A DNA stretch of 63,126 nt, the filler included, from Rhabdomonas costata (lineage: Eukaryota): assembly GCA_019059605.1 (NCBI GenBank). It is 51 parts of 51 records of this genome, joined end to end, with 100 filler letters (N's around TTAATTAATTAA, not from the genome) between each part and the next. Parts side by side here need not be neighbours in the genome. Positions count along the whole stretch, not along the records: positions 61,988 to 63,126 come from JAHMHO010026659.1; 50 more parts are not named here. One strand, written 5' to 3'. The translations under genes and the position numbers were made by a program. A model generated the notes under the pieces. It searched no databases, was not told the DNA's origin, and was given only the letters and a program-made list of their open reading frames with translations. Positions 61,016-63,126 of this stretch are shown here, piece by piece. Positions within the stretch are counted from its first letter, which is position 1. Every line of letters starts with the position of its first letter.

Positions 61016-61207
61016 ATCTCTGCGGATGTGCTTCCGCCAAACCCCGCGGCGCGGGACTTTGTCAGCGCGAAGCTGAAGGCCACGCTGATCCCCGCCCTCA
61101 CCGAGCTCGCCAAGGTGAAGCCGCAGAACCCCACGCAGTGGCTGGCGGACTACCTCCTGGCGCACAACCCCAACAAGCCCAAGCAAGTCCCTGGGCCCTC
61201 AATGTAA
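61016..61207 (+). CDS. NME5: Last exon with Dpy-30 domain of radial-spoke nucleoside diphosphate kinase 5
   Basis: ctcag|...AARDFV...TLIPALTELAKVKPQNPTQWLADYLLAHNPNKP...stop; not in the ORF track in this frame. Confidence 0.85.
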   Translation: MSADVLPPNPAARDFVSAKLKATLIPALTELAKVKPQNPTQWLADYLLAHNPNKPKQVPGPSM

Positions 61208-61987
61208 TTGGTCTTGACGGACGTGACATGGGCGCAGTTGGAGTAGTTGGATGGGAGAGAGGGTGGAGGAGCTTAAAAAGAGAATGCCAATGTTGAGTGG
61301 AAGGGTACTGCGGTGGGCTCCAGTTGTGAGTGCTTCCGTGAGCCCATTCTCTCCGCTGACGTGTTCCTCCCTGCTTCCCTTCCTTCCTCTTTCGGTTGTG
61401 TGCTGCTTTTTAGTGCTCTGTTGTAAATGTTCTCATGACTGTTTTGCATGTTCAGCGGAGTATGGCAACCGGATCTGCGAGGCGGGAAGTCGAGGGAGGG
61501 AATGTTATCGTTCAGAAAAGTTGAGTGATGGGTGCACATTATGTCTTTTGTTGATGTTTGTGCAGCTTTCGTGCAGGCTTTAATGGGAAAGGCGAGCGCA
61601 AAGGGTGCTGTTAGGTAATGTGGATCGCACCCACGTGTGCTGTGTAATTGCACCTGGGCTTCCAGCTTTACTGCGGTGGGCATTGCCGTCTCGCACACGC
61701 ATCGATATGGCTTCTTCACTGCAAGCACAACCTGCTGCTGTGGACGTGGTTGTGGTTGCCGTCCTGAGGTATGGAAACTTTCGGCGTTTTTGTATTCATT
61801 AACCAGTGTGTTTTTGTGCTTTTTGTTTTCTTTGTGTTGCTGTTCCTGTCCTTTTTGCCTTATTGCTTGCCTCCCCCCCAACCCCCCNNNNNNNNNNNNN
61901 NNNNNNNNNNNNNNNNNNNNNNNNNNNNNNNTTAATTAATTAANNNNNNNNNNNNNNNNNNNNNNNNNNNNNNNNNNNNNNNNNNNN

Positions 61988-62205
61988 CTCCTCGGCTGCC
62001 TTCTCGGCTGCATTAGTGGCAATTGTGGACAGCAATTCCTTCCATTGTGGGCCACCCGCTGGGACGCAAAACCCTGCTCCGATGAAAACGATGCAGTTTT
62101 TCGCTGCAATTTCGTGAAGAAGGTCCGGGTGTGCTCGAACCTCACTGTCCGTGTCATAAGTGGCCGTGGGATAGCGGAAAACCAGCCGCAGCTTCATTGC
62201 GTCAT
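61988..62205 (-). CDS. SIR2-like (SIR2_2, non-canonical sirtuin) domain N-terminus, paralog 1
   Basis: LLHEIAAKNCIVFIGAGFCVPAGGPQWKELL matches the SIR2_2 pattern VxFxGAGxSxxxGxPxWxxLL. Confidence 0.8.
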
Positions 62206-62352
62206 CTGATGGGAGCATAAGACGTATCAGACAAATTCAACACGTCAGTCTTATGACCAATTACTCGAAGTGTCTGAGTGTGGCTAACAGAGAAGAGGTC
62301 TTTTTTCGCAATATATATGCAAGACGCTTTATTTTTGAGAATTCCTTCGCAG

Positions 62353-62665
62353 TATGTAAGCTGCGGCTGGTTTTCCGGTACCCCACCCCGACCTTCGACA
62401 CGGAGACCCAAGTCCGGTGCCAGCCCCAGCTCCTTCAGGAGATCCGTGCGCGCAACTGCGTTGTGTTCATTGGGGCCGGCTTTTGCGCGCCCGCCGGGGG
62501 ACCCAGCTGGGGCAAGCTCTTGGAGCTCGTCGCCCGGCGGGGTGCCCAGCAGGAGCGAGAGGAAGCCGAGCGGAAGAAGCCGGAGGCTGAGTTGAAGCCC
62601 GCAGTGGAGGATTCTGGGGTCAAGCGCGTCTCGTCTCTGAGGCGCCCATCCGCGCAGACCCACAT
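62353..62665 (+). CDS. SIR2-like (SIR2_2) domain N-terminus, paralog 2
   Basis: ttcgcag|...LLQEIRARNCVVFIGAGFCAPAGGPSWGKLL; 3' boundary uncertain. Confidence 0.8.
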
Positions 62666-63126
62666 GTATCCACCCTTGCCCACGAGCGCGCACTCTCAGT
62701 AAAACACGGGGGATTGGTAGTTGGAGTGTACAGTGGTTGTGGTGATGGAAGTGGTGGTAGGGCTTACAAGTGCTACAAAGGTGTGTGTGTGCCAAACGCC
62801 GGACTAAAGCCTGCATAATCGCAGTGCTTTGGAATTGAGTGCTGCCCTGCGCAAACACTGCTCTTTTCTTTCTTCATAACGCCATTGCCGGTTCTGTTGC
62901 TACTCCGCCGAAGCAAAGCTTCCCCCTATTGGTTTCACTTCTACTTTGATGAGCTCTACTCTCAACTACAGGGCAGACACGACCTGAGCCAGCGAGAATA
63001 CACGCGACCTTGGCATTGCAGCCTGCTCCGGGGGGTAAACTGGCGCGATGCACCAAGCGGCTCAAGGTAACCGCCATCGGGTCAATAAACCCCCGAAAAA
63101 CCCCGATTCAAGAAGAAGGATTACAA

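What the first reader, a model, noticed from the sequence alone, without database searches (positions are those of the whole stretch)
61988..62702. Two adjacent, divergently oriented paralogs of a bacterial-defence-type SIR2 domain
Seen: two copies 39/55 identical in protein by my count (KLRLVFRYPT...VFIGAGFC.PAGGP.W..LL), differing at many synonymous sites, so they are not a simple fold-back copy. Only about 147 bp separate their AG acceptors, and both read in phase 1. Both have Cys in place of the usual GAGxS serine and share a conserved N-terminal KLRLVFRYPT extension. Established: this GAG...PxW pattern is typical of SIR2_2 NADases (ThsA, DSR, SIR2-HerA; eukaryotic FAM118-like) rather than histone-deacetylase sirtuins (PDFR). 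Inference: a duplicated NAD-depleting immune-like module in a protist. Both look like internal exons, so the head-to-head layout may be an inversion chimera of tandem paralogs or alternative exons.
Basis: partly seen in the sequence, partly recalled or inferred. Interest (0 to 1): 0.72.

Follow-up and report, generated by a model that had tools for sequence, protein, structure and literature searches.

The report
Chimeric contig joining two SIR2 paralogs
The two back-to-back SIR2 pieces are real exons of two separate, spliced genes from an expanded protist family of giant proteins that likely cleave NAD+, but their head-to-head pairing is most likely an artefact of DNA amplification and assembly.

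Summary
The sequence counts hold (39/55 aa, 147 bp, phase 1), but the pairing does not. The contig is one of 51 unrelated 1.1-kb pieces with primer-like tails; 10 of 51 carry perfect inverted repeats. Copy B's acceptor is false: a genomic-type read contig and spliced contigs from six runs (four studies) match B only from 62358 and carry a different, family-conserved acceptor. The break sits at the start of a 20-bp word shared with copy A. No laid run bridges it. Copy A splices normally to a WWE exon on another contig. Both exons belong to a family of about 12 genes (16 exon matches) of defence-type SIR2_2 proteins closest to ThsA, not to deacetylase sirtuins. Full-length relatives carry a Larg1/MavL-type macrodomain (Z 21.7), ankyrin, WWE, SIR2 and a receiver-like end. 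Catalytic Asn/His are kept in paralogs, but TTNYD became TTNYS with a four-cysteine insert. NADase and immune roles are untested. This scan already reported the family four times on other contigs of this genome. New here: the chimera diagnosis, family size and macrodomain fold.

The parts
61988..62205 (-). Internal exon of gene A: WWE-SIR2 linker, first Rossmann strand with the GAGFC loop and first helix; cut off by the contig end at 61988
   Evidence: Spliced contigs of X2, X3, X4, X5 match 61988-62207 with 0 differences. The upstream exon is on G000:C54969 (L053), ends in a phase-1 GT donor and encodes WWE.
62206..62207 (-). AG splice acceptor of exon A (used)
   Evidence: Same position (41 codons before the GAG glycine, phase 1) as in 12 other paralog exons; spliced contigs leave the window here.
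62206..62357 (-). Spacer; most likely the 3' end of gene A's intron (inferred)
   Evidence: Single copy in the assembly; no laid run covers 62216-62329.
62351..62352 (+).
   Evidence: Two codons off the family position (39 against 41); reads show another acceptor.
62357..62358 (.). Likely chimeric junction
   Evidence: All 7 laid runs that match B closely start at 62358 and run on unlike the window; B's read-supported acceptor is absent from the assembly.
62175..62194 (-). 20-bp word shared exactly by A and B (arm in A)
   Evidence: Longest exact word shared by A and B and longest between A and any of 13 paralog exons compared.
62358..62377 (+). 20-bp word shared exactly by A and B (arm in B); begins at the junction
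62358..62665 (+). Internal exon of gene B, lacking its first 11 nt: same SIR2 start plus a charged linker
   Evidence: X2 contig matches 62358-62665 with 0 differences; X1, X3, X4, X5, X6, X7 match parts.
62666..63126 (+). Intron of gene B; phase-2 GT donor at 62666-62667
   Evidence: X2 and X7 contigs leave the window at 62665 with the same next exon; X1 reads on into the intron to 62742; single copy in the assembly.

Best explanation
The contig is most likely a chimera that joins exons of two separate spliced genes, A and B, whose products are predicted to be giant ADP-ribose-gated NAD+-cleaving proteins. Origin of the layout (about 0.9): during primer-based whole-genome amplification a strand copied from gene A's intron likely folded back onto the start of exon A. 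A second template switch, or the assembler, then crossed into gene B through the 20-bp word that A and B share. Identity (about 0.95): both exons encode the start of a ThsA-like SIR2_2 domain. For A, the upstream WWE exon is shown. Full-length paralogs read: Larg1/MavL-type macrodomain, receiver-like region, ankyrin, WWE, SIR2_2, receiver-like C-terminal domain. Mechanism (about 0.5, all inferred): the macrodomain and WWE would bind ADP-ribose or ADP-ribosylated proteins, binding would drive oligomerisation as in ThsA and FAM118, and the SIR2 domain would then cleave NAD+ to ADP-ribose and nicotinamide as a stress or infection switch. The roughly 12 paralogs would diversify the input.
For: Chimera: B's genomic acceptor differs in run X1 and falls at the family position. 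Six runs from four studies show the same different upstream exon. That acceptor is missing from the assembly. The junction is at the first base of the longest shared word. 35 of 51 window contigs start with seven G/T-only bases and 34 of 51 end with seven A/C-only bases, against 2.5% inside contigs. 10 of 51 carry perfect inverted repeats of 20 bp or more, and in the other 9 one arm lies 0-26 bases from a contig end. An X1 contig folds back at 62064 onto 62034-62044 and then ends in a primer-like tail. Inverted chimeras primed by 2-21 nt are the main class in MDA (PMC1855051, abstract). Identity: exon L008 matches P0001 letter for letter; P0001-P0003 pass Pfam cut-offs for SIR2_2 and WWE; best solved relatives are ThsA, KomC and DSR2 by sequence and fold; the N-terminal domain matches Larg1 at Z 21.7, rmsd 3.2, 291 aligned, and MavL at Z 14.4. 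Asn kept in 11 of 12 core exons of this genome; His-Gly seen in the 6 whose reading frame reaches it intact. These residues are needed for ThsA activity (PMC7272460, passages).
Against: No read covers the spacer, so the junction is neither bridged nor directly shown false; X1 also misses most of exon A, so its cover is patchy. X1-X4 are one sample, possibly the source of the assembly. The amplification chemistry is inferred from tails, and the cited paper concerns MDA. The catalytic exons of A and B themselves were not recovered (one search found no next exon for B). The Asp of TTNYD, present in 118 of 135 relatives surveyed, is absent from all 12 core exons here (10 Ser, 1 Thr, 1 degenerate), which may weaken or change activity. 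The four-cysteine insert has no counterpart in ThsA. Bacterial relatives show no conserved neighbour; defence-type genes lie nearby in 3 of 10 loci, with no control. The three full-length paralogs labelled RCo differ from other relatives in the conserved acidic motif of the macrodomain. No activity, ligand or trigger has been measured.
Confidence: 0.45

Rival explanations
1. Same chimera and family, but the protein is a self-contained ADP-ribosylation writer-reader-eraser. The altered SIR2 (TTNYS plus four-cysteine insert as a substrate platform) transfers ADP-ribose to a protein, WWE reads it, and the Larg1/MavL-type macrodomain removes it.
For: The closest folds of the macrodomain are arginine-ADP-ribose hydrolases (PMC10951314 passages). 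The Ser and the cysteine insert go together: all 7 TTNYS proteins and 1 TTNYT protein have the insert, none of 118 with Asp does. A zinc module is tied to protein-substrate binding in canonical sirtuins and is missing from SIR2_2 proteins (PMC12700824 passage).
Against: The MavL catalytic-loop motif is only partly matched (Asp kept, PGN-D/E not; my reading). The insert lies before the His, whereas the sirtuin zinc module follows it (recalled). The nearest solved relatives are hydrolases. Zinc binding is untested.
Confidence: 0.22
2. Same chimera and family, but the SIR2 domain is a pseudo-enzyme or weak enzyme that senses NAD+ or ADP-ribose in a signalling scaffold with no defence role.
For: Loss of the Asp in the whole clade; one paralog also lacks the Asn (L023); transcripts are present in several ordinary runs; the surrounding domains are adaptors or sensors.
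Against: Asn, His-Gly, GFSFTD and the Trp after the GAG loop are kept. FAM118 proteins look nearly inactive alone yet are active together (PMC12700824 abstract passage).
Confidence: 0.23
3. The layout is real: a very recent inverted copy of part of gene B sits in gene A's intron as a dead fragment, or the sample carries a rearranged allele.
For: The contig exists as assembled; a near-identical variant of B (8 differences in 157 nt) is present in X2 and a variant intron piece (4 in 218) in X1, so B has recent copies or alleles.
Against: No second copy of B or of its true acceptor in the assembly; junction at the shared word; fold-backs are common in this assembly; no bridging contig.
Confidence: 0.07
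4. The two exons are alternative cassettes of one gene on opposite strands, chosen by trans-splicing or DNA inversion.
For: Both exons have the same entry phase; euglenozoans trans-splice (recalled).
Against: A and B transcripts have different upstream exons, and B's acceptor in the contig is not used; no joints were listed in either lay-out.
Confidence: 0.02

Closest known systems
Thoeris ThsA (SIR2-SLOG NADase; PDB 7uxt, 6lhx, 8bto, 8wc0), with KomC and DSR2 next
   Same: Best sequence and fold matches (profile E 5.6e-29; Foldseek E 7.5e-9); GAG loop with PxW, Asn and His-Gly, GFSFTD.
   Different: No SLOG domain and no TIR partner seen; TTNYS for TTNYD; four-cysteine insert; 1,800-2,900 aa multidomain, intron-rich, multi-copy.
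Eukaryotic SIRim proteins, clade C SIRim-Macro (bioRxiv 10.1101/2024.09.18.613514, section 8 read) and FAM118A/B (PMC12700824)
   Same: Defence-type SIR2 in a eukaryote; a SIRim-Macro fusion is already described; FAM118B is matched at E 7e-10.
   Different: The macrodomain here is of Larg1/MavL type, lies about 700 residues upstream, and has ankyrin and WWE between. 'Euglen' and 'Discoba' have 0 occurrences in the preprint's main text; its Table S4, which may list these proteins, was not available.
Larg1 / MavL / DUF4804 arginine-ADP-ribose hydrolase macrodomains (PDB 7wbk, 8dmp, 8dmu)
   Same: Fold of the N-terminal domain (Z 21.7, 14.4, 14.1); GLGxF diphosphate loop and a conserved Asp.
   Different: 10-13% identity, no Pfam hit, catalytic-loop motif only partly matched, fused to SIR2.
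Unnamed SIR2_2-receiver proteins of about 440 aa (e.g. P0008, P0069, L032 in a Myxococcales genome) and protist relatives (P0061, P0064)
   Same: Closest sequence relatives of the C-terminal half, SIR2 followed by a receiver-like domain.
   Different: They keep GAGFS and TTN(F/Y)D, and lack the cysteine insert, WWE and macrodomain; single copy in 10 of 401 genomes searched.

Membership tests
SIR2_2 / SIRim (defence-type sirtuins) | Pfam SIR2_2 (PF13289) above cut-off | tested here: met
   P0001-P0003 at 62-69 bits against 24.5; 6 genomic exons over the cut-off. The two window pieces alone give no Pfam hit, as they precede the modelled part.
SIR2_2 / SIRim (defence-type sirtuins) | Closer to ThsA, DSR2 and FAM118 than to deacetylase sirtuins | tested here: met
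   Among 36 PDB sequences at E up to 0.1 the SIR2 hits are ThsA, KomC, DSR2, FAM118B, Avs5-type and Sir2-superfamily chains; no CobB or SIRT1-7 is listed; Foldseek agrees.
SIR2_2 / SIRim (defence-type sirtuins) | Catalytic Asn and His (ThsA N112, H152) | tested here: met
   In paralogs: Asn in 11 of 12 core exons, His-Gly in the 6 that show it. Not seen for genes A and B themselves.
   0 of 12 core exons of this genome; 118 of 135 relatives have it.
SIR2_2 / SIRim (defence-type sirtuins) | No zinc-binding module | tested here: inconclusive
   A CxC...CxxC insert lies between TTNYS and HG in 9 of 12 core exons, with variant spacing in 3; it is modelled at pLDDT about 80-90. Metal binding untested.
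SIR2_2 / SIRim (defence-type sirtuins) | NADase activity and a role in immunity | not testable with these tools
   Needs enzyme and infection assays.
SIRim clades A-E of the preprint | Placement in the published tree | not tested
   My tree held no ThsA, FAM118 or clade reference sequences; the supplement was not available.
Thoeris type I | C-terminal SLOG/STALD domain and a TIR (ThsB) partner | tested here: not met
   ThsA profiles match only the SIR2 part; the C-terminal domain aligns with receiver-like domains. A TIR partner was not searched for.
Canonical deacetylase sirtuins | Pfam SIR2 (PF02146) match and PDFR-type loop | tested here: not met
   No such family listed at E up to 0.1; the loop reads GAGFCxPAxGPxW.
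Larg1/MavL/DUF4804 macrodomains | Fold | tested here: met
   Z 21.7, rmsd 3.2, 291 aligned to Larg1 for the model of relative P0024.
Larg1/MavL/DUF4804 macrodomains | Motifs xGxGxGxF and WDxxSxPGN(D/E)FF (PMC10951314) | tested here: inconclusive
   GLGxF and one Asp present, the rest diverged; no residue-level structural alignment was obtained.
True head-to-head gene pair | Independent sequence bridging both copies, with working splice sites on both | tested here: not met
   0 of 7 runs bridge; B's acceptor differs in all 7.

The most novel reading that the evidence does not exclude
Euglenozoans have rebuilt a bacterial-type SIR2-receiver NADase into a one-chain ADP-ribosylation writer-reader-eraser. 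It combines a SIR2_2 domain that independently gained a four-cysteine metal module while losing the TTNYD aspartate, a WWE reader and a Larg1/MavL-type eraser, and it was expanded to about a dozen paralogs with drifting macrodomain active sites, as a protist innate-immune switch.
Probability: 0.2. Interest if true: 0.75.

Novelty: new variant of a known kind. Interest (0 to 1): 0.38.

Why it matters
The flagged arrangement is a warning: in this amplified, fragmented assembly, inverted joins are common and can fuse paralogs. The underlying family matters more. Defence-type SIR2 proteins in eukaryotes are known (189 EukProt species in the SIRim preprint), but a clade that swaps TTNYD for TTNYS, gains a four-cysteine insert and carries both WWE and an arginine-hydrolase-type macrodomain was not found in the paper searches made here. 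If active, it would be a testable model of NAD/ADP-ribose signalling or immunity in free-living euglenozoans, and of how SIR2_2 NADases could move toward protein substrates.

Tried and rejected
Pfam on the window exons alone: nothing for copy B at E up to 1, and only two weak unrelated families among the 15 exons. Alternative exons or trans-splicing between A and B: rejected (different upstream exons). First coding exon after spliced-leader addition: rejected, as both mRNAs continue upstream for more than 2 kb and the Met is not conserved. Non-canonical intron ending at 62357: rejected, as X1 shows an ordinary AG acceptor. Simple fold-back copy of one exon: rejected, since A and B each match their own transcripts. 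Search for B's next exon and B's true acceptor in the assembly: 0 hits each; the genome is incomplete. Sequence search of the macrodomain profile against the PDB: only chance hits. Atlas search of P0002 residues 690-860: receiver-like clusters at 0.87-0.88, a lead only. WWE region of the P0003 model had pLDDT under 50. VIA-align comparison of the SIR2 model was not obtained. Tree: quick search only, 124 of 197 proteins held (those with both anchor motifs); six clade members on one branch at SH-aLRT 92; no root, so no donor or transfer is claimed. Bacterial neighbourhoods: no conserved partner in 10 loci. Paper searches listed nothing on this family; most subscription journals are not covered, and the SIRim preprint's supplement (Table S4) could not be seen. 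Earlier-findings look-ups by sequence and by words returned nothing.

Full report
Setting. The window is not continuous DNA. It holds 51 contigs of 1,137-1,142 bases joined by N-padded linkers. The finding lies on the last one, 61988-63126, which is G000:C26659 of a 97-Mb assembly in 104,289 contigs. Neighbouring pieces of the window are unrelated. The organism is taken to be a euglenid by inference: two EukProt proteins match its exons letter for letter (P0001 with L008, P0011 with L012), and relatives are labelled as Euglena-type transcripts or Diplonema papillatum.

Observation. But the pair is part of a family. A search of the genome gave 16 matches on 15 contigs, about 12 distinct groups if near-identical copies are pooled (my count), and 12 contigs carry the downstream core exon. 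Cys after GAGF occurs in 12 of 15 aligned exons. A groups with L004-L007 and B with L002/L003, so they are not sister copies (quick tree on 63 columns).

The junction. Seven of nine listed runs were laid on the contig; all are assembled contigs, not reads. Exon A is matched without differences over 61988-62207 by X2, X3, X4 and X5. The contigs then continue with an exon that I found on G000:C54969; it ends in a phase-1 GT donor and encodes a WWE domain. So A splices normally. Copy B is matched only from 62358. X2, X3, X4, X5, X6 and X7 (four studies) all continue upstream with one sequence unlike the window. X1, which reads through exon and intron (62358-62742, 0 differences) and is therefore genomic, continues upstream with a pyrimidine-rich AG acceptor 11 nt before 62358. 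That acceptor falls 41 codons before the GAG glycine, as in 13 of 15 exons examined; the contig's AG for B is at 39 and L013's best candidate at 43. The true acceptor is not in the assembly. No contig covers 62216-62329.

Why the join arose. The break is at the first base of a 20-bp word shared exactly by A and B. It is their longest shared word, and the longest between A and any of 13 paralog exons. The assembly bears marks of primer-based amplification: 35 of 51 contigs begin with seven G/T-only bases and 34 of 51 end with seven A/C-only bases, against 2.5% inside contigs; that some amplification kits use such primers is recalled. Ten of 51 contigs hold a perfect inverted repeat of 20-86 bp, and in the nine others one arm is 0-26 bases from the contig end, in six of them followed only by such a tail (no shuffle control was run, but by arithmetic a 20-bp repeat is expected in under one in a million random contigs of this size). 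One X1 contig folds back within exon A itself, at 62064, then ends in a tail. The bases before 62358 pair imperfectly with those next to the A arm, as expected for self-priming. The simplest path is a fold-back of A's intron onto exon A, then a crossover into B through the shared word. Inverted chimeras primed by 2-21 nt make up over 85% of rearrangements in MDA (PMC1855051, abstract only), though the chemistry here may differ. Against: the junction is not directly disproved, X1's cover is patchy, X1-X4 are one sample, and B has a near-identical variant in X2. I put a real rearrangement at about 0.07.

What the genes encode. Relatives are 1,535-2,962 aa. Pfam finds WWE then SIR2_2 near the C-terminus, and ankyrin upstream. 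The N-terminal 400 residues have no Pfam hit. A model of relative P0024 (pLDDT 79) matches Larg1 at Z 21.7, MavL at 14.4 and Drosophila CG3568 at 14.1, well above other macrodomains at 7.4 or less (Foldseek E 2e-7; Atlas lead). These are arginine-ADP-ribose hydrolases (PMC10951314, passages), but their catalytic-loop motif is only partly matched. The SIR2 half is closest to ThsA, KomC and DSR2 by sequence and fold, with FAM118B further off and no canonical sirtuin among the 36 listed. Its nearest sequence relatives are unnamed SIR2-receiver proteins of about 440 aa in bacteria and other protists, and the C-terminal domain is modelled as five beta-alpha units. A receiver-like region between macrodomain and ankyrin is a lead only. 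For gene A, WWE-SIR2 is shown directly, and its contig in X2 has 1,922 nt beyond the window end, enough for the rest of SIR2 and the C-terminal domain. The macrodomain and catalytic exons of A and B are inferred from paralogs.

Active site. ThsA needs N112 and H152 (PMC7272460, passages), as FAM118B needs N163 and H206 (section 21 of PMC12700824). In this genome Asn is kept in 11 of 12 core exons and His-Gly in the 6 that show it. The following Asp is never kept: 10 TTNYS, 1 TTNYT, 1 degenerate. Among 135 relatives with both motifs, 118 have Asp and none of those has a CxC...CxxC insert, whereas all 7 with Ser and 1 of 2 with Thr have it. SIR2_2 proteins are described as lacking a zinc module, so this insert is the most unusual feature. 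That the Asp binds nicotinamide in sirtuins is recalled.

Mechanism. Best guess: ADP-ribose-type ligands bound by macrodomain and WWE promote assembly and switch on NAD+ cleavage, by analogy with ThsA and FAM118. Every step is inferred. Rivals are a one-chain ADP-ribosyl writer-reader-eraser (0.22) and a catalytically weak sensor scaffold (0.23). Support for 'immune' is thin: family membership, lineage-specific expansion, and defence-type genes near 3 of 10 bacterial relatives (GmrSD, BrxC/D, REase-ARP with Macro) with no control.

Novelty. Eukaryotic SIRims, including SIRim-Macro fusions, are described (bioRxiv 10.1101/2024.09.18.613514, passages and section 8); Euglenozoa are not named in its main text, and its Table S4 could not be seen. 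Searches for this domain combination listed nothing relevant (listings only). This scan has four earlier notes on the same family from other contigs of this genome; they agree with my reading but are not independent support. Verdict: the head-to-head pair is most likely an artefact; the genes are real, and a new variant of a known kind. Interest 0.38.

Noticed in passing
window 1-63126: 51 unrelated contigs of about 1.14 kb joined by linkers; most carry primer-like tails and 10 carry perfect inverted repeats of 20-86 bp. Hairpin or inversion findings in this assembly need read support.
   Followed up: yes
window 61018-61209: A terminal exon that resembles a Dpy-30-type dimerisation motif (recalled); no Pfam hit at E up to 0.1. 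Separate contig, unrelated to the finding.
   Followed up: partly
window 62506-62662 and 62756-62973: A variant of exon B (8 differences in 157 nt, run X2) and of its intron (4 in 218, run X1): an allele or a very recent paralog.
   Followed up: no
L023 250-543: A paralog whose core exon lacks the catalytic Asn but keeps His-Gly and the cysteines; likely inactive.
   Followed up: no
L032 5992-7329; L044-L052: An apparently unnamed bacterial SIR2_2-receiver family, single copy in 10 of 401 genomes searched, no conserved neighbour; GmrSD, BrxC/D, or REase-ARP with Macro nearby in three loci.
   Followed up: partly
proteins P0027-P0044: The Larg1/MavL-type macrodomain also occurs without SIR2 and fused to protein kinases (P0037, P0038, P0041) in euglenozoans; no Pfam family covers it in the members scanned.
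   Followed up: partly
proteins P0001, P0011, P0018: These three paralogs differ from most relatives in the conserved GEED motif of the macrodomain, which suggests a drift from enzyme to binder.
   Followed up: no
proteins P0001, P0002, P0011, P0024, first 60 residues: A short helical N-terminal motif that resembles RIIa/Dpy-30 docking domains (recalled, not tested).
   Followed up: no
proteins P0059, P0060: WWE-like region directly before SIR2 in relatives with TTNYN and no four-cysteine insert; they branch next to the TTNYS clade.
   Followed up: no
L006 8-70; L009 1047-1709: Further end-of-contig fold-backs on contigs of this family.
   Followed up: no
runs X5, X6, X7: Runs filed under other organisms or a biofilm metagenome hold letter-identical spliced pieces of A or B, so the same organism is likely present there.
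   Followed up: no
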